From: Acidobacteriota bacterium
Lineage (GTDB): Bacteria; Acidobacteriota; UBA6911; RPQK01; JAJDTT01
Direction: 5' to 3'
Assembly: GCA_965217775.1 (NCBI GenBank)
Contig: CBDCJH010000002.1
Coordinates: 4,608,001-4,672,000, forward strand
Length of the DNA stretch: 64,000 nucleotides
The notes under the pieces are model-generated. The model was not told the DNA's origin. It made no database searches and worked only from the letters and a program-made list of their open reading frames with translations. Positions 38,108 to 58,268 of the stretch are shown piece by piece; the stretch's first letter is position 1, and each line of letters opens with the position of its first letter. The translations under genes and the position numbers were made by a program.

Positions 38108-38524
38108 ATGACACCCGTAACAGTGAAGGGCCTGAAACGATTGCTGGTCGGTATCGCTAGCGCCGGAACTATTTTCTGGGCCGTGATTCCCAGCCCCGAT
38201 TCGACGGAGGACCGGCAGAAAGAATGTTTTCGGCAGCGGATTGCTCGCCTTTCATATACCGCTGTTGAGCCGGACATGACGACGATTGAAGTCAGGCCGC
38301 CGGAATGGGTCGACATCACATTCAAGGGCGAGACGGCCCGCATTCTCGACCTCAACAAAGAGAGCGCCCGCCGCGCCGCCTCCGTCGGGCTTCGCATGTG
38401 GCGCGACTGTGCCTATCTGACGCGCTATAAGCCGATCATTCGCGGCATGAAGCTCTACAACGATCGCGGTGACATACTCACCAGCTTTCACACCGGCTCG
38501 CAGGGCCGGATCAACAGCCGGTGA
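38108..38524 (+). CDS. Hypothetical protein with an N-terminal hydrophobic segment
   Basis: 138-aa ORF, AGG before ATG, plausible composition. Confidence 0.5.
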   Translation: MTPVTVKGLKRLLVGIASAGTIFWAVIPSPDSTEDRQKECFRQRIARLSYTAVEPDMTTIEVRPPEWVDITFKGETARILDLNKESARRAASVGLRMWRDCAYLTRYKPIIRGMKLYNDRGDILTSFHTGSQGRINSR

Positions 38525-38775
38525 CCCTCCGATGGAAGCAAGACCGCTCACACAGTAGAACGGGGTCCGGTTTCCCCTTCCGTTGACTATCCTGCCTCAT
38601 CCGGCCCCTGGCGCTTTCGCGCCGATTCCCTCCTCCAGGGCCGATTTCGTCTGGTCCTGAGAAAAAAGAAGGGGACTATATAGCGAGAGAGCGAATATCG
38701 GCCCTATGCGGGCCTGTTGGCGTTTGGGCCGGTGTGTTGGGAGGAGAGCGAGTCGCTTAGGGCAAGCCAACCTAG

Positions 38776-38933
38776 CAGCCCGTGGCAAAAGTCATCACGG
38801 CATTCGACCGTCCCTGCATCCCGGCGGACGGCGTTGCTATCGGCTCACATACTCCCGGTATGCACCCGAATCGCGCCTTGTCCGGCGGGCGCAGGAACGG
38901 TCTCGGTGCTCGCGGGACTTTCACCACGGACTG
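38776..38933. mobile_element. ~158-bp MITE (CAGCCCGTGG...CCACGGACTG)
   Basis: TIRs; TSD CTAG; other copies at 39530-39687 and 44784-44942. Confidence 0.9.
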
Positions 38934-38937
38934 CTAG

Positions 38938-39065
38938 CCCGCATTTCTCACCAGGTCGCTACGCGTATGATGAAAAATAATCTGTTTTTGAGCATTTACG
39001 CGGAATTTTCCAAGGTTTCTCCGGGACAGACTGCGCTGGGCGCGCGCGCTGATGAGAAATCCGGG
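38938..39065. mobile_element. 128-bp MITE with IS1380-like ends
   Basis: CCCGCATTTCTCACCA / TGATGAGAAATCCGGG; CTAG on both sides. Confidence 0.7.
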
Positions 39066-39321
39066 CTAGCTGTTGCGGGGACTGAGGATCAGGATTGCCT
39101 TCGACAACGAACATGCAGTTTCCATTATTCGTTTTCAGCCGCTCGTGACACGGGGCCTTGACGTCATCGCACGATGGATCCTGGATTATGCGGGGCCTGC
39201 GGCTGCCGATCGGTCGCTTTCCGAGATCGAAAGGACGATCACGAGCCGGGCACAAACCCCACACAGGGGATCGATCCGCAATGAAATGGCGACCGGGTTG
39301 CAAGCAATCGGGCTTATATAC

Positions 39322-40659
39322 CTAAGTGCCCTTGGCATACAGTTCTGGCACCACGCTTTCCCCAACGAGATACGTTCCGGTGCCCAGGGCAAGAACCCCA
39401 GCCCTGAGAATGTTCAGGGCGGCATTGTGGTCCCTGTCCATTCCAAGTCCGCAGGCCCTGCACCGGAAGGTTTCGCTCCGCCCTGGATCGTGGCGGGCGC
39501 CGCACCGGTGGCAGTCCTGCGATGTATATCAGCCCGTGGCAAAAGTCGTCACGGCATTCGACCGTCCCTGCATCCCGGCGGACTGCGTTGCGATTCGGGC
39601 ACATACTCCCGGTATGCACCCGAATCGCGCCTTGTCCGGCGGGCGCAGGAACGGTCTCGGTGCTCGCGCGACTTTCACCACGGACTGATATGCGGGATTC
39701 ACTTCTACGAACTTCCGACCGGCCCATTCTGCCTTGTACTGGATTTGATTCCGCAGAAGCCCCCAGGATTGCGTCAGTATTTCTCGATTCAGCCCCTTCT
39801 TCTTCGAGCCCTTCGTTACCATCCCTTGGATGTTCAGCTTCTCCACAGCGATCAGACCGTGCTCACGAATGATCCTGGTGGAGAGACGATGGCAGGCATT
39901 ACGGTTTCGGACCGATTCCCGGTGACGGAGCCGAGATAGCTGTACGATCCGCTTCCGTCTGGTCTTGGAAATCTTCTTGCACCTGGAGACCTTTCTCTGC
40001 TGCTTTCGGATCCCCGCCCAGTCCCGTCTATTCCGTTCGATCCTCTCACCCGTGGACAGCACCGCTCGCTGGCGGACTCCCAGGTCGATCCCCACCGAAG
40101 ACTCGCATTTCGGTAGCGGCGGCTTCTCCACCTCGTACGTCAGGTCCACATACACCCGGTTCGGCTTGCGGACAATCCGCAACGCCTTCAACGGGCATCC
40201 GTCCGGCAACGGCCGGGACGGAAATATCCGGATCGTCGGGAAGCCCTTGGGCCGGATGGCGTAGCCCCGAGCGCGCTTCTTCACCCGGGTCGCCTTGGGG
40301 TCGACGACGTCGATGGTCTCCATCCTCGCAATGGGCCGGAATCGAGGATACCCCGGCTTCTCCCCCGCCTTGCAGCGACGGAAGAACGCCTTGAAGGCCC
40401 GGTCCAACCACATCAACATCCCACGCTCCGCCTTGACCGCCACCGACCCGAGCCCCTCCGGATCGTCCTTCCTCTGGGAGGTCAACCCCTTCATCTGATC
40501 GTACAGGGTCACGCCGCGTTGCTCGGATTCCCAGGCCGTCCTGCGTTCCTCCAGTGCAGCGTTGTACAGCCGATTCAGGATGGACCTCACCCCGTCCAAC
40601 CGCCGGATTCCACCCTTGGACAGCTTGGCTCTGCACTGGATAGTTGCGTGGACTTTCAT
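39322..40659 (-). pseudogene. tnpB: TnpB RNA-guided endonuclease interrupted by a MITE
   Basis: LYNAALEER, GYPRF, VGIDLG, IAVEKL; removing the MITE restores VNPAYTSQDCHRC...CRAC...DRDHNAALNI. Confidence 0.92.
39530..39687. mobile_element. MITE copy inserted in tnpB
   Basis: TSD ATAT; near-identical to 38776-38933. Confidence 0.92.
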
Positions 40660-40873
40660 GGTAGGAATCGTAACCCATCAGCCTGAATTCTCGGCACTTA
40701 CGTATATAATCCCCCAAGCAATCCCCGGCGGTCGAAAAGCCGTCGTCGCCTTTGCCGTCGACGACGACGCGGGCGAGTTTCTCAGTCATGCCGGGGCCGA
40801 TTGGGTGGCGCAGATGCCTGGAAGGCAAGATGTCGAGGGAGAGAGGGGGGCGGGGCATCTTTTGGGGATTAAG

Positions 40874-42804
40874 CCGAAGTTCCAGACATAGAGACGAGAT
40901 AACTCCTTGATTCTAAAGGGACAACTCACGAAGCGGACTAGTTGTCCACTGGGAACACCTTGACCAACTCCAGCGCCCGTCGCTGCAGCGTCGTCGGTTC
41001 CGTCAATCGTTGCAGCGTCGGACCGTCCGGGTCCGAAGCGGTTCGGCACTGGTGACGGGCACGCGTCGCCATCTCCGCCATCAGTGTCTTGAAGCTGTGA
41101 AGCGGCAGTCCGTCCTCGGTTTCCCGCTTCGTCTTCTTTCGTTTGGCCGAGGCCGACGGCTCGGCTTTCAGCACCGGGTCCCGTCGAGCGCGGTGCGCGT
41201 CCAGGTCCTCGTCATCGAACAACAACGGGGCCAGGGCTCGCCGCAGATGCCACTGGACATAGTAGGCCAGCAGGCACAGGAACAGGTGCGACCGCACCCG
41301 CATCTCTGCCCGGTGACGGATGGGACGGATCTGCAAGTCCACCGTCTTGAGTGAGCGGAAGGCCCGCTCCACGTTCGTCAGGTTCTTGTAGCTGCGCACC
41401 ACGTCGGGCGTCGCCAACCGGTCTTCGGGTTCGCTGGTGCGCAGGATGTAGAATCCGTCCAGTTGCGCCTCGCGGGCGATGGCTTCGGTGCGCCGAGCGT
41501 ATTCGAAGCGCCCGTCTTCGATCACCAGCTCGAAGTGCTTGGCCACCTTGTACCGGTTCTTGATCCGACCCACCTTCAGCGCGATCTGGGTCGCCAGCAA
41601 GGGCGTCTTGGTCCGTCGCGCCACCTCCCGGGCGATCCGGGCCAACTTCTTCTCCGTCTCCGCCACCAGGTCCTGGCGTTTGTTCCGCCGATACTCGGCC
41701 AGCATCGGGTTGTAACAGACGACGAGCCGTTCGCCCGGATAGGCCTCGGTCCGGATCTCCGCCAAGTGACGCTCGTCAAAGAGCGAGGGTTGAACCGCTT
41801 GGGCGTCCACCAGTTGGCGAATGGCCTCATGCCGCAGGGCCGAGATCCAGCCCAGCCCCGGATACCGCTTCAGATGCTTGATCTGAGTCTCGGTCAGCAG
41901 CCCCCGGTCCCCCACCAGCACCACCCGCTTCAAGCCGAAGCGCTGGCGTAACTTCTCGACTTGATCCGGCACCGTGACCGGATCCCCCGTGTTGCCGGGA
42001 TAGGCCTGGACCGCCACCGGACAACCCGCCGCATCGGCCATCACCCCGTAGACCACGATGGGACGGCCCCGCTTGCCGTCCCGGCTGTGGCCGTACTGCA
42101 TCAGGGAGCAGGTGTGGCCTTCATAGTAGCTGCTGCTGACGTCGTAGAGCACGTGATCCCCTTCAGCCAGATGCCGCCGGGCCAGCTTCTTCTCGATCCG
42201 ATTCTGACGTTCGAGCAACCAGTCCATGGCCCCGTACAGGTCGTCCTCGTCGGCGTCCTCCAGGGAGAGCTCGGAAGCCAGGGTGGTGGTGTGCCAGAGC
42301 CGGGTGGTGGCGAGCTTGGAGGCGGGATGCAACAAGCGCTGAATGATCAGGGCCAGCACCAGGTTGCGCTGGCGCGAGGGCTTGGGGTCGATCAGAGTCG
42401 GGAGCTTCAGGCGGCGGATGGCTTTGAGAACCATCTCGACATGGCCATGAGGAAGGGAGCGTTCGATGACGAAGAGCTCATCGGGGTGGACGAGAGGGAC
42501 GTTCTTGAGGACGAGACGGAGTCGCTGGATCTTGTCCGGGGGCCACTTGGAGAGGTTGGCGATGGTGCGTTTACGGACGCGCTTGCCTTCGCGCCAGCCT
42601 TCGCGCAGGAGGATGGCGGGGCGGGAGTTTCGGTTGGGGACGGTGTCGATGTACATGGCAACTAGTATATAGAATATACCTTTTATATTCAACAGGAAGA
42701 GTCATCACATACATGGGAACACAAATGAGCTGATTCAGAGCCGTATCCGTAATAAAATCAACGACTTAGCTCGATTTTAGGGGGATATTTTCCCGGAACT
42801 TCCG
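40874..42804 (-). mobile_element. IS1634-family element
   Basis: TIR CCGAAGTTCC / GGAACTTCCG; 6-bp TSD ATTAAG. Confidence 0.88.
40938..42656 (-). CDS. IS1634-family transposase
   Basis: LYDVSSSYYEG, YGHSRDGK, VGDRG, VERAFRSLK. Confidence 0.93.
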   Translation of the reverse strand: MYIDTVPNRNSRPAILLREGWREGKRVRKRTIANLSKWPPDKIQRLRLVLKNVPLVHPDELFVIERSLPHGHVEMVLKAIRRLKLPTLIDPKPSRQRNLVLALIIQRLLHPASKLATTRLWHTTTLASELSLEDADEDDLYGAMDWLLERQNRIEKKLARRHLAEGDHVLYDVSSSYYEGHTCSLMQYGHSRDGKRGRPIVVYGVMADAAGCPVAVQAYPGNTGDPVTVPDQVEKLRQRFGLKRVVLVGDRGLLTETQIKHLKRYPGLGWISALRHEAIRQLVDAQAVQPSLFDERHLAEIRTEAYPGERLVVCYNPMLAEYRRNKRQDLVAETEKKLARIAREVARRTKTPLLATQIALKVGRIKNRYKVAKHFELVIEDGRFEYARRTEAIAREAQLDGFYILRTSEPEDRLATPDVVRSYKNLTNVERAFRSLKTVDLQIRPIRHRAEMRVRSHLFLCLLAYYVQWHLRRALAPLLFDDEDLDAHRARRDPVLKAEPSASAKRKKTKRETEDGLPLHSFKTLMAEMATRARHQCRTASDPDGPTLQRLTEPTTLQRRALELVKVFPVDN

Positions 42805-57596: not shown

Positions 57597-58268
57597 TTGG
57601 TGAACGTTTGGAACTTTGTGTCATGCGACTCAAAGAATCGGCGGCTGGGAAACCGCACCCGCTTCTATCTCGACCCTTATAGGGCCGTTGATGTTCACCA
57701 CAACCGCCTACCCCACTGGCAGCAAGGTGACAAATTCGTCTTCGTGACTTGGCGGCTGGGAGATTCGCTTCCCCAAGCCAAACTGGATCAGTGGCGGGAG
57801 GAGCAGAAGCTCTGGTTGAAACACCATCCTCGACCTTGGAATTCTCAGACAGCGCGACGCTACCGCAATCGTTTCTCCGGACGGATCAACGACTGGTTGG
57901 ATCAAGGCAACGGGTCGTGCGTCCTCAGGGATCCGGCGTTGGCAAAGATCGTGGCTGACTCCTTGCGGCATTTCGATGGCCGGCGTTACGAACTGGAATC
58001 CTTCATCGTGATGCCCAACCACGTCCATGTGCTGTTTCGCCCTCTTGGCTCTAATCGACTCGGGGATATCTTGAGGTCTTGGAAGCTATTTACGGCTCGC
58101 CAGATCAACCAGAAGACCGGAAGGTCGGCCAAGCTCTGGCAGAAAGATTATTGGGACCGGTTGATCAGGCACGAGACACACTTTTTGCAGTGTTTGGAAT
58201 ACATCCGCGAGAACCCGGCGAAAGCCGGGTTGAGAGAAGGGGAGTTTGTATTGTTCGAGAAGGTTTAG
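57597..58268 (+). CDS. rayT: REP-associated tyrosine transposase (RAYT, HUH Y1)
   Basis: LPHW, FVTWRL.DSLP, MPNHVH, WQKDYWDRLIR, YIRENP; REP-flanked; start uncertain. Confidence 0.9.
   Translation: MVNVWNFVSCDSKNRRLGNRTRFYLDPYRAVDVHHNRLPHWQQGDKFVFVTWRLGDSLPQAKLDQWREEQKLWLKHHPRPWNSQTARRYRNRFSGRINDWLDQGNGSCVLRDPALAKIVADSLRHFDGRRYELESFIVMPNHVHVLFRPLGSNRLGDILRSWKLFTARQINQKTGRSAKLWQKDYWDRLIRHETHFLQCLEYIRENPAKAGLREGEFVLFEKV

What the first reader, a model, noticed from the sequence alone, without database searches (positions are those of the whole stretch)
39301..40722. TnpB carried between terminal inverted repeats with an 8-bp target duplication
Seen: tnpB (ATG 40659, stop 39322) fills a 1.4-kb unit bounded by 22-bp TIRs (CGGGCTTATATACCTAAGTGCC vs GGGGATTATATACGTAAGTGCC, 19/22) and flanked by CAAGCAAT on both sides. 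The stop codon lies inside one TIR and only ~33 nt separate the other TIR from the ATG. Removing the unit rejoins a ParE-like toxin in frame (GLQAI|PGGRKAVV), so the whole unit moved as one element. All three RuvC acidic residues (GID, VE, DRD) and the zinc finger are intact once the MITE is removed. Established: TnpB normally rides IS200/IS605 (Y1) or IS607 (serine) elements, which lack TIRs and make no TSD. Inference: an RNA-guided nuclease captured by a DDE transposon, with TIR style and TSD length resembling IS1595, and mobilised in trans. I cannot check here whether this pairing has been reported.
Basis: partly seen in the sequence, partly recalled or inferred. Interest (0 to 1): 0.88.

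Follow-up and report, generated by a model that had tools for sequence, protein, structure and literature searches.

The report
TnpB riding an IS1595-type DDE transposon
A guide-RNA nuclease gene (tnpB) sits inside a small transposon moved by an IS1595-type cut-and-paste enzyme encoded elsewhere, and a fixed flanking base at nearly every copy suggests the nuclease helps decide which insertions persist.

Summary
Window 39309-40714 is a tnpB-only unit with 22-bp TIRs (19/22) and the 8-bp duplication CAAGCAAT. Its tnpB is split by a 158-bp MITE.

The genome holds 14 such units at different sites. It also holds five 1762-bp elements whose TIR is 21/22 identical and which encode an IS1595-family DDE transposase.

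The pairing is old and wide. TnpB relatives at 41-97% identity in Acidobacteriota, Binatia and Chloroflexota carry the same kind of ends. Four Dehalococcoidia copies carry transposase and tnpB in one TIR/TSD unit.

The general idea is already in print: Altae-Tran et al. 2023 describe DDE-linked TnpBs with inverted ends and solo copies moved in trans. IS1595 is not named in the text I could read.

Two points appear to be new:
- The last helix of the predicted omega RNA is built from the right TIR.
- The base just outside the duplication on the tnpB 5' side is G in 47 of 49 units, against 9 of 23 tnpB-less IS1595 copies. This looks like a TAM, but that is inferred, not shown.

The parts
40723..40723 (-). 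Base -1 of the flank on the tnpB 5' side. It reads C on the + strand, which is G in tnpB orientation. Proposed last base of a TAM.
   Evidence: G in 47 of 49 TIR/TSD-bounded tnpB units, against 9 of 23 tnpB-less IS1595 copies.
40715..40722 (.). 8-bp target-site duplication, copy on the tnpB 5' side (CAAGCAAT on +, ATTGCTTG in tnpB orientation).
40693..40714 (-). Left TIR (tnpB 5' side), GGGGATTATATACGTAAGTGCC in tnpB orientation.
   Evidence: It is 21/22 identical to the TIR of the IS1595 transposase-bearing family B.
40660..40692 (-). 33-nt leader between the left TIR and the tnpB ATG.
   Evidence: No sigma-70-like match was found on this strand in the intact copy, and no ssDNA hairpin.
39688..40659 (-). 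tnpB 5' fragment (residues 1 to about 324; RuvC D and E).
   Evidence: Pfam OrfB_IS605 4e-18.
39530..39687 (.). 158-bp MITE inserted in tnpB, flanked by the 4-bp duplication ATAT (39526-39529 and 39688-39691).
   Evidence: The genome holds 205 end-to-end copies, 150 of them with an identical 4-bp duplication.
39322..39529 (-). tnpB 3' fragment (zinc finger, RuvC DRD, stop TAG at 39322-39324 inside the right TIR).
   Evidence: The intact copy L033:514-1689:- is 391 aa and hits guided_TnpB at 1.6e-63.
39309..39470 (-). Predicted omega RNA scaffold, overlapping the tnpB 3' end and running to the element end. The 5' limit is not determined.
   Evidence: Two helices with compensatory changes in 25 relatives. 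The terminal hairpin appears in the MFE fold of the intact copy.
39309..39330 (-). Right TIR (tnpB 3' side). In tnpB orientation it ends ...GGCACTTAGGTATATAAGCCCG. The outermost base is G here and C in 12 of the other 13 copies.
39301..39308 (.). 8-bp target-site duplication, copy on the tnpB 3' side. Predicted first 8 nt of the guide.
   Evidence: The guide role is inferred from TnpB biology.
39073..39308 (+). ParE-like toxin gene, N-terminal part, interrupted by the element.
40724..40891 (+). ParE-like toxin gene, C-terminal part (stop included).
   Evidence: Intact homologues bridge the join.

Best explanation
The unit is a dead copy of a 1244-bp non-autonomous IS1595-family transposon. Its only cargo is tnpB together with the omega RNA embedded in the tnpB 3' end.

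Shown:
- 22-bp TIRs, 8-bp duplications, many copies at different sites, and an empty site in natural populations.
- An IS1595 DDE transposase is encoded in the same genome by elements with almost the same TIR.
- In some relatives the IS1595 transposase and tnpB share one TIR-bounded unit.

Inferred, mobility:
- That transposase binds the TIRs and moves the tnpB unit in trans.

Inferred, nuclease:
- The tnpB transcript is processed into an omega RNA whose last helix uses the core of the right TIR.
- Read-through into the right duplication and flank supplies the guide.
- An empty allele (left flank ending in G, one copy of the 8-mer, right flank) would then be a TAM-plus-target site. TnpB would cut it, and recombination with an occupied copy would restore the element.
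- In the occupied site the same target is preceded by the CCCC of the TIR, so it would be spared.
- Copies that land beside a G would therefore be the ones that persist.

This window's copy no longer makes TnpB, because the MITE splits the gene. It also has a changed outermost TIR base.
For: Ends and copies:
- The TIR core gives 33 matches in the genome (17 forward, 16 reverse) and none for the control pattern read backwards.
- There are 11 family-A units. 9 have a perfect 8-bp duplication, 1 has 7/8 and 1 has none.
- Three more diverged units each have a perfect 8/8 duplication.
- 11 copies encode an intact 387-391-aa TnpB (10 at 95-100% identity, one at 87%).

Partner transposase:
- All five family-B copies have 8/8 duplications and encode an IS1595 transposase. 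Four are intact and one is split.

Empty site:
- Contigs in runs X2 and X3 join L033 492 to 1745. They skip 1252 bp, which is the element plus one duplication, with 8 letters shared at the joint.

Breadth:
- 6 of 15 genomes of the taxonomic family have the TnpB, counting this genome. All are in one genus.
- 62 of 80 loci from other genomes carry the right-end motif (3 or fewer mismatches to a 13-mer) within 200 nt after tnpB.
- Four composite 2246-2249-bp units carry transposase plus tnpB with 19-20/20 TIRs and 8/8 duplications.
- The stop codon lies 5-33 nt from the element end in 32 of 36 units.

RNA:
- The two helices are 85.6% paired, against 72.7% in shuffles (0 of 500 reach the observed value).
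- 43 cells have changes on both sides, against 15.4 in shuffles. Slid controls give 30-53% paired.
- Many G-U pairs fit the sense strand only.

Flank:
- Base -1 is G in 47 of 49 units. In tnpB-less IS1595 copies it is G 9, C 10, A 2, T 2 of 23.
- Fisher p = 2.4e-7, or 2.4e-11 against pooled half-sites.
- The 17 family-B copies within that control give G 7, my count from the listing.

Protein:
- The closest solved structure is ISDra2 TnpB, E 3.5e-32 over residues 31-375.
Against: - No experiment shows transposition, omega RNA processing, a TAM or cleavage.
- A TAM with a single position conserved across the whole clade would be unusual for TnpB. The other positions look lineage-specific: in the genus, -2 is G in 14/22 and TSD base 1 is A in 22/22; in other lineages, -2 is G in 2/27 and TSD base 1 is A 12, C 9, T 6.
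- Cut-and-paste excision normally leaves a break, not a clean empty site. The benefit of homing to a DDE element is disputed (review PMC13565253, passages read).
- Even the youngest copies (98-100% identical) obey the G rule. That fits a filter at or soon after insertion better than slow selection.
- Two units break the rule (L126 A, L179 T).
- The helices were chosen from the same sequences on which they were counted.
- The RNA-library evidence is from assembled contigs, which cannot show strand, ends or level.
- The control set is dominated by one IS1595 family in three genomes.
- One genome (G007) has five intact tnpB units, but only a broken IS1595 fragment was found there with my query.
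Confidence: 0.8

Rival explanations
1. The architecture is right (an IS1595-mobilised tnpB unit), but the flanking G is not a TAM. It would come from the transposition machinery acting on these particular ends, or from some other orientation-specific effect. TnpB would be uncoupled cargo as far as site choice and retention go.
For: - Only one position is conserved clade-wide.
- Very young copies already obey the rule.
- tnpB-less IS1595 copies also prefer G or C at -1 (19 of 23) and at +1 (18 of 23), so the transposase does read these positions.
Against: - tnpB-less IS1595 copies show no G-over-C preference in either orientation: left G 9 and C 10, right C 6 and G 12.
- The rule holds in lineages whose two TIRs are nearly identical, such as the G007 family and L174, L175 and L177. 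Terminal TIR asymmetry therefore cannot explain it.
- The bias is tied to tnpB orientation across 41-100% protein identity.
Confidence: 0.3
2. Simple nesting: an ordinary IS1341-type (IS200/IS605) tnpB element once inserted into an IS1595 MITE and still has its own hairpin ends inside the TIRs.
For: - The terminal RNA hairpin sits where the right-end hairpin of an IS605-type element would sit.
- Solo tnpB elements of the IS1341 group are common (review PMC13565253, passage read).
Against: - Only 33 nt lie between the left TIR and the ATG, and the stop codon is inside the right TIR. There is no room for separate ends.
- ssDNA folds of both ends are no better than shuffles.
- The 3' arm of the terminal helix is the TIR itself.
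- The same compact layout holds in 36 units from several phyla.
- Transposase and tnpB share one TIR pair in four composite copies.
- No Y1 or serine recombinase gene lies within 18 kb of any copy.
Confidence: 0.03
3. The guide's first 8 nt always match the left copy of the duplication. TnpB-omega RNA would therefore bind its own left junction (G plus an 8-bp seed) without cutting. It would then act as an autoregulator or roadblock, and insertions lacking the G would be lost quickly.
For: - Every TSD-making insertion creates this 8-bp match beside the left TIR and the tnpB leader.
- The rule is obeyed even by the youngest copies.
Against: - Pure inference; nothing in my calls tests binding.
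- Eight base pairs is a short seed.
- The RuvC residues are intact, which argues for a cutting enzyme.
Confidence: 0.08

Closest known systems
DDE-transposase-associated TnpB branches (DDE-1 to DDE-6) of Altae-Tran et al. 2023, PNAS (PMC10691335; section 9 and passages read)
   Same: - TnpB within inverted terminal repeats.
- A DDE partner.
- The TnpB 3' end lies close to the transposon end.
- Solo TnpB copies have ends like those of transposase-bearing elements, read by the authors as trans mobilisation.
   Different: - The only DDE family named in the main text is IS630. A 2026 review citing it lists ISL2, IS630 and IS1031 (PMC13565253, passage read). 'IS1595' occurs 0 times in the PNAS main text.
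- I saw no flank-base asymmetry and no TIR-built omega RNA helix in the parts I read.
Fanzor1 in eukaryotic TIR transposons (Bao and Jurka 2013, PMC3627910, listing and abstract only; Saito et al. 2023, PMC10432273, passages read)
   Same: A TnpB-family nuclease as the single ORF between inverted repeats. The omega RNA sits at the right end, with the guide beyond it and a TAM drawn beside the left repeat.
   Different: Fanzor1 is eukaryotic, larger, and rides other transposon superfamilies. Here the host is bacterial and the partner is IS1595, with an 8-bp duplication.
IS1341-group solo tnpB elements of IS200/IS605
   Same: A tnpB-only unit of about 1.2-1.4 kb, mobilised in trans. The omega RNA overlaps the tnpB 3' end.
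   Different: Those elements have no TIRs and no duplication. They have hairpin ends, a Y1 TnpA partner and a 4-5-nt TAM set by TnpA (PMC13565253, passage read). All of these features were tested here and not met.
ISDra2 TnpB (PDB 8bf8, 8exa, 8h1j)
   Same: It is the closest natural solved relative (an AI-designed nuclease, 9yyg, scores higher), E 3.5e-32 over residues 31-375, with the same domain order and RuvC and zinc-finger motifs.
   Different: ISDra2 TnpB rides an IS605-type element with TAM TTGAT. Here the only clade-wide flank signal is a single G.
IS1595 family insertion sequences
   Same: TIRs beginning GGGG or GGGA, 8-bp AT-rich duplications, and a transposase with a zinc ribbon plus a DDE_Tnp_IS1595 domain. 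Some members carry passenger genes: family B here carries an Mrr_cat-like ORF.
   Different: The window's unit has no transposase. A tnpB passenger is not mentioned in the 9 papers that hold both 'TnpB' and 'IS1595' (titles and abstract starts only).

Membership tests
IS1595 family (as a non-autonomous derivative) | Terminal inverted repeats matching those of elements that encode an IS1595 transposase | tested here: met
   The left TIR is 21/22 and the right TIR 19/22 identical to the family-B TIR. Family B encodes DDE_Tnp_IS1595.
IS1595 family (as a non-autonomous derivative) | 8-bp target-site duplication | tested here: met
   The window copy has 8/8. 12 of the 14 genome copies have 8/8, one has 7/8 and one has none.
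IS1595 family (as a non-autonomous derivative) | Encodes the DDE transposase | tested here: not met
   The unit holds only tnpB. The transposase lies in trans in family B. In relatives L169, L170, L171 and L179 it lies in cis.
IS1595 family (as a non-autonomous derivative) | Shown to be moved by that transposase | not testable with these tools
   Only inferred, from shared TIRs, co-occurrence in G000 and G014 and an empty site.
TnpB RNA-guided nuclease | Family HMM above the curated cut-off | tested here: met
   NF040570 guided_TnpB scores 215.3 bits against a cut-off of 100 for the intact copy. The window copy is split by the MITE.
TnpB RNA-guided nuclease | RuvC D-E-D triad and C4 zinc finger | tested here: met
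   D192, E273 and D356 are invariant, and C329, C332, C346 and C349 are invariant or nearly so. All are present in the window's two fragments.
TnpB RNA-guided nuclease | Omega RNA at the 3' end with a guide from the flank | tested here: inconclusive
   Two covarying helices support a sense-strand RNA. There is no Rfam match. Ends and guide cannot be seen from contigs.
TnpB RNA-guided nuclease | TAM beside the target | tested here: inconclusive
   G at -1 in 47 of 49 units fits a TAM, but no cleavage test was possible.
IS200/IS605 (IS1341 group) | No TIRs, no target duplication, subterminal hairpins | tested here: not met
   TIRs and an 8-bp duplication are present. End folds are no better than shuffles.
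IS200/IS605 (IS1341 group) | Y1 (HUH) TnpA in cis, or nearby in the genome with matching ends | tested here: not met
   PF01797 gives 3 weak hits in the genome (22-39 bits). The nearest lies 18.7 kb from a copy.
IS607 | Serine recombinase TnpA partner | tested here: not met
   There is one PF00239 hit in the genome, 163 kb from the nearest copy.
DDE-associated TnpB branches (Altae-Tran 2023) | Placement in one of the branches DDE-1 to DDE-6 | not testable with these tools
   The branch lists and alignments are in supplements that were closed. The main text does not name IS1595.

The most novel reading that the evidence does not exclude
A cross-phylum TnpB clade has been rebuilt to serve a cut-and-paste DDE transposon. 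The right TIR doubles as the last omega RNA helix, and the 8-bp target duplication becomes the first 8 nt of every guide. A minimal TAM (G just outside the duplication) decides which insertions are kept, or chosen. This would be natural evidence that RNA-guided homing or retention works for TSD-making DDE elements in bacteria.
Probability: 0.45. Interest if true: 0.75.

Novelty: new variant of a known kind. Interest (0 to 1): 0.62.

Why it matters
TnpB is the ancestor of Cas12, and its role is understood mainly for IS605 and IS607 elements, which excise without a scar. A 2026 review (PMC13565253, passages read) argues that OMEGA modules should bring little to DDE transposons and notes how rare the pairing is in prokaryotes.

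This case offers:
- a large natural family, with solo and transposase-bearing forms, in which the pairing is old and active;
- a strand-specific flank signal (47 of 49) that is hard to explain unless the nuclease module influences which insertions exist.

That makes the question 'what does TnpB do for a DDE transposon?' directly testable with a compact 391-aa enzyme, a defined RNA and a defined transposase. If the TAM really is as short as it looks, the enzyme would also have an unusually permissive targeting range.

Tried and rejected
- Chance TIRs: rejected. None is expected in shuffles, and the backwards control pattern gives 0 in the genome.
- Nesting in a MITE: rejected (see rivals).
- Broken G007 copies: I first read the 'stops inside' of the G007 copies as broken genes and as evidence for decay after loss of the transposase. 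One search showed they are the natural stop codons of intact 386-aa ORFs. I withdrew that reading.
- Nuclease-made duplication: I considered that a staggered TnpB cut could make the 8-bp duplication, with the left flank matching another copy's right flank. By eye, the flanks show no such likeness, and the TIRs match IS1595. I dropped it without a formal test.
- Rfam: no credible match in the intact copy. The best was COG3860 RNA at E 0.96.
- Promoter scan: nothing on the tnpB strand.
- Antitoxin: a tblastn with the upstream ORF of the intact ParE locus found nothing in window 38300-39200.
- Phylum sample: only this genus matched at E <= 1e-50 (3 of 401 genomes). later found 50% relatives in other orders of the phylum, so that sample simply missed them.
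- RNA-library contigs:
  - They cover 29, 29, 30 and 21 of 30 bins in runs X1, X2, X3 and X5.
  - X5 holds a 255-nt contig at depth about 1900, against 9.6-49 for its neighbours. It lies over the tnpB 3' region of a related copy.
  - I treat this only as a weak hint of an abundant omega RNA, because contigs show neither strand, ends nor level, and DNA may be present in these libraries.
- Literature:
  - 'TnpB' plus 'IS1595' gives 9 papers, none on this pairing by title or abstract start.
  - 'TnpB' plus 'terminal inverted repeats', 'target site duplication' and 'DDE' gives 17 papers.
  - 'TnpB' plus 'IS630', 'IS1031' and 'ISL2' gives 1 paper.
  - A broad six-term search was uninformative.
  - PMC9956272 (passages read) is not relevant.
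  - Supplements of PMC10691335 could not be opened and may already list this clade.
- Rows dropped before the flank count:
  - Of 94 loci, 44 failed the thresholds TIR >= 14/20 and TSD >= 7/8. These are truncated matches, contig ends, degraded ends and rearranged copies.
  - They include G000 C2:1186780 (no duplication), C2:2021652 (a deletion in the right TIR; by eye 8/8 duplication with G at -1) and C2:5734289 (degenerate TIR; by eye 8/8 with G).
  - One duplicate row was removed.
  - L136 and L138 are one orthologous site counted twice.
  - L168 passes the thresholds but its ends are not IS1595-like.
- Rows dropped from the control: of 49 IS1595 loci, 26 failed TIR >= 17/20 and TSD 8/8.
Full report
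**What is in the window.**
- The 22-bp TIRs lie at 39309-39330 and 40693-40714 and agree at 19 of 22 positions.
- CAAGCAAT flanks them at 39301-39308 and 40715-40722.
- tnpB runs on the minus strand from the ATG at 40657-40659 to a TAG at 39322-39324, inside the TIR.
- 33 nt separate the ATG from the other TIR.
- The 17-nt TIR core occurs only at these two places in the window, with none expected in shuffles.
- The reading frame is broken once, by a 158-bp MITE at 39530-39687 with the 4-bp duplication ATAT. A second copy lies at 38776-38933 with CTAG.
- This MITE has 205 end-to-end copies in the genome, 150 of them with an identical 4-bp duplication.
- MITE plus duplication is 54 codons. Without them the protein reads through NPAY-TSQDCHRCG.
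- The RuvC triad and the four zinc-finger cysteines are in place.
- The host gene is a ParE-family toxin gene. Five uninterrupted homologues in sister genomes read straight across the join, and one scores 37.2 bits on ParE_toxin.

**It is a transposon family, and its driver is in the genome.**
- The TIR core gives 33 matches in the 6.4-Mb genome and none for the control pattern read backwards.
- They pair up into 11 units of 1244 bp that hold only tnpB. One is 1265 bp, and the window's is 1406 bp because of the MITE.
- Nine of the 11 have a perfect, different 8-bp duplication. One has 7/8 and one has none.
- Three more diverged tnpB units (98%, 87% and 72% protein identity) have related TIRs and perfect duplications.
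- The same search found five 1762-bp elements whose TIR differs from the tnpB unit's left TIR at one of 22 positions. All five have 8-bp duplications.
- These five encode an IS1595-family DDE transposase (Pfam 1.8e-38, NCBIfam 4.7e-52) and a small Mrr_cat-like passenger.
- Four of the five transposase genes are intact.
- Assembled contigs from two RNA libraries (X2, X3) join the two flanks of one copy. They skip exactly the element plus one duplication, so the empty site exists in nature.
- No Y1 transposase or serine recombinase gene lies within 18 kb of any copy.
- The element ends do not fold into ssDNA hairpins better than shuffles.
- With 33 nt at one end and the stop codon inside the TIR at the other, there is no room for a nested IS605-type element.

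**The pairing is old and widespread.**
- In the genus, five of eight other genomes have relatives at 73-97% identity. All that could be delimited have IS1595-type TIRs and 8-bp duplications.
- None of six genomes of the sister genus had a match.
- A scan of one genome per species returned 80 loci at 40-97% identity. By their record titles they come from Acidobacteriota (including Bryobacterales and Terriglobia), Binatia, Dehalococcoidia, Caldilineaceae and others.
- 62 of the 80 carry the right-end motif within 200 nt after tnpB.
- The units are compact, 1.2-1.4 kb, and the stop codon lies 5-33 nt from the end in 32 of 36.
- In one Dehalococcoidia genome, four 2246-2249-bp copies carry an IS1595 transposase gene and tnpB, in that order. 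They sit between 19-20/20 TIRs with perfect 8-bp duplications.
- TnpB is therefore a regular passenger of this transposon family, in autonomous and non-autonomous forms.

**The RNA.**
- Because the ORF runs into the TIR, any omega RNA must lie inside the coding region and end in the TIR.
- An alignment of the last 220 nt of 25 units shows two helices with compensatory changes.
- Counted on that alignment, 85.6% of cells pair, against 72.7% in shuffles (0 of 500 reach the observed value).
- 43 cells have changes on both sides, against 15.4 in shuffles. Sliding the partners by one to three columns drops pairing to 30-53%.
- Many pairs are G-U, which fits only the tnpB sense strand.
- The 3' arm of the last helix is the TIR core (GTATAT and inward). 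This leaves about seven nucleotides (AAGCCCC) before the element end.
- The same hairpin appears in the MFE fold of the intact copy.
- The structure was derived from the sequences it was counted on, so it is good but not independent support.
- Rfam has no family for it.

**The flank asymmetry.**
- I oriented every delimited unit by tnpB and looked at the base just outside the duplication on the 5' side.
- Of 94 loci examined, 50 passed my thresholds and 49 remained after removing a duplicate. The base is G in 47 of these.
- In 23 tnpB-less IS1595 copies from the same and sister genomes, oriented by the transposase gene, it is G 9, C 10, A 2, T 2. The mirror position shows no matching bias.
- Fisher's test gives 2.4e-7, or 2.4e-11 against both half-sites pooled.
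- The 17 copies of the likely partner family within that control give G 7, my count from the listing.
- The rule holds in lineages whose two TIRs are nearly identical, so it is not a by-product of unequal ends.
- In the genus there is more: -2 is G in 14 of 22 and the first base of the duplication is A in 22 of 22. In other lineages these positions differ.

**How I think it works.**
- Shown: the IS1595-type ends, the duplications, the many copies, the empty site, and a partner transposase in trans (and in cis in relatives).
- Inferred: the transcript's 3' part is processed into an omega RNA, and read-through into the right duplication and flank gives the guide.
- An empty allele then reads left flank ending in G, one 8-mer, right flank. 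That is TAM plus target.
- In the occupied allele the same target follows the CCCC of the TIR and is spared.
- Cutting of empty alleles, followed by recombination with an occupied copy, would keep or spread insertions that lie beside a G.
- Precise loss is plausible for such elements, because the two 8-bp repeats flank any excision break.
- A weakness is that even the youngest copies obey the rule. This suggests a filter at or soon after insertion.
- TAM-assisted target choice, or binding of the guide's first 8 nt to the left duplication, are alternatives I cannot exclude.
- The window's own copy is dead as a nuclease gene. Its outermost right-TIR base is also changed.

**What is known.**
- Altae-Tran et al. 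2023 (PMC10691335, section 9 read) already report six DDE-associated TnpB branches with inverted terminal repeats. They also report solo TnpBs whose ends match transposase-bearing elements, and they propose trans mobilisation.
- Only IS630 is named in that main text. A 2026 review lists ISL2, IS630 and IS1031 (PMC13565253, passages read).
- IS1595 is absent from the PNAS main text. It is also absent, as a TnpB partner, from the titles and abstract starts of the 9 papers holding both words.
- The supplements that list the branches were closed, so priority cannot be settled here.
- Fanzor1 elements in eukaryotes have the same layout (PMC10432273, passages read).
- I therefore file this as a new variant of a known kind. 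The new points are the IS1595 partner, the TIR-built RNA helix and the flank G.

Noticed in passing
window 39530-39687 and 38776-38933: A 158-bp MITE with 10-bp imperfect TIRs (CAGCCCGTGG / CAGTCCGTGG) and 4-bp duplications. The genome holds 205 end-to-end copies, 150 of them with an identical duplication, mostly TTAA, CTAG or ATAT. No autonomous partner was sought.
   Followed up: partly
window 40938-42692 (minus strand): A 584-aa DDE_Tnp_1 (IS4-like) transposase ORF starts about 215 bp from the tnpB unit. This stretch is an insertion hot spot.
   Followed up: no
window about 57981-58208 (G000:C2:4665981-4666208): A weak Y1_Tnp (PF01797) match of 30.6 bits in a 225-aa frame, 18.7 kb from the tnpB unit. 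It is not linked to any tnpB copy and may be a REP-associated or other IS200-like gene.
   Followed up: no
L031 714-1154 (minus strand; G000:C2:445385-447146 element): The IS1595 family-B element carries a 146-aa passenger ORF with Mrr_cat / NA-iREase1 restriction-endonuclease-like domains (2.8e-6 and 7.8e-8).
   Followed up: no
L169, L170, L171, L179: Composite 2246-2249-bp elements with an IS1595 transposase followed by tnpB between 19-20/20 TIRs (GGGAATTACTGACAAAGGTT) and 8-bp duplications, in four copies in one Dehalococcoidia MAG. The flank base is G in 3 of 4.
   Followed up: partly
G000:C2:1186780-1188023: The only family-A copy without a duplication (AATGGATT against AAACATAT). This suggests a rearrangement between two copies. 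The partner junctions were not sought.
   Followed up: no
L033 564-778 (run X5): A 255-nt contig at depth about 1900, against 9.6-49 for neighbouring contigs, in a size-fractionated metatranscriptome. It matches the tnpB 3' region of a related copy. This may be an abundant omega RNA, but contigs cannot show strand or ends.
   Followed up: partly
window 39309 (last base of the right TIR): In this copy the outermost TIR base is G instead of C, so the apparent duplication is 9 bp (G plus the 8-mer). This is seen only in this copy.
   Followed up: no
G007 (L116-L119, L127): Five intact 386-aa tnpB units were found, but only a broken IS1595 fragment with the family-B query. Either the partner there is too diverged for that query or the units are stranded.
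   Followed up: no
L168, L173, L176 (SAR202 / Dehalococcoidia): TnpB relatives at about 44% identity whose ends (AGACGATTTCA...) are not IS1595-like. They may mark the edge of the IS1595-linked clade.
   Followed up: no
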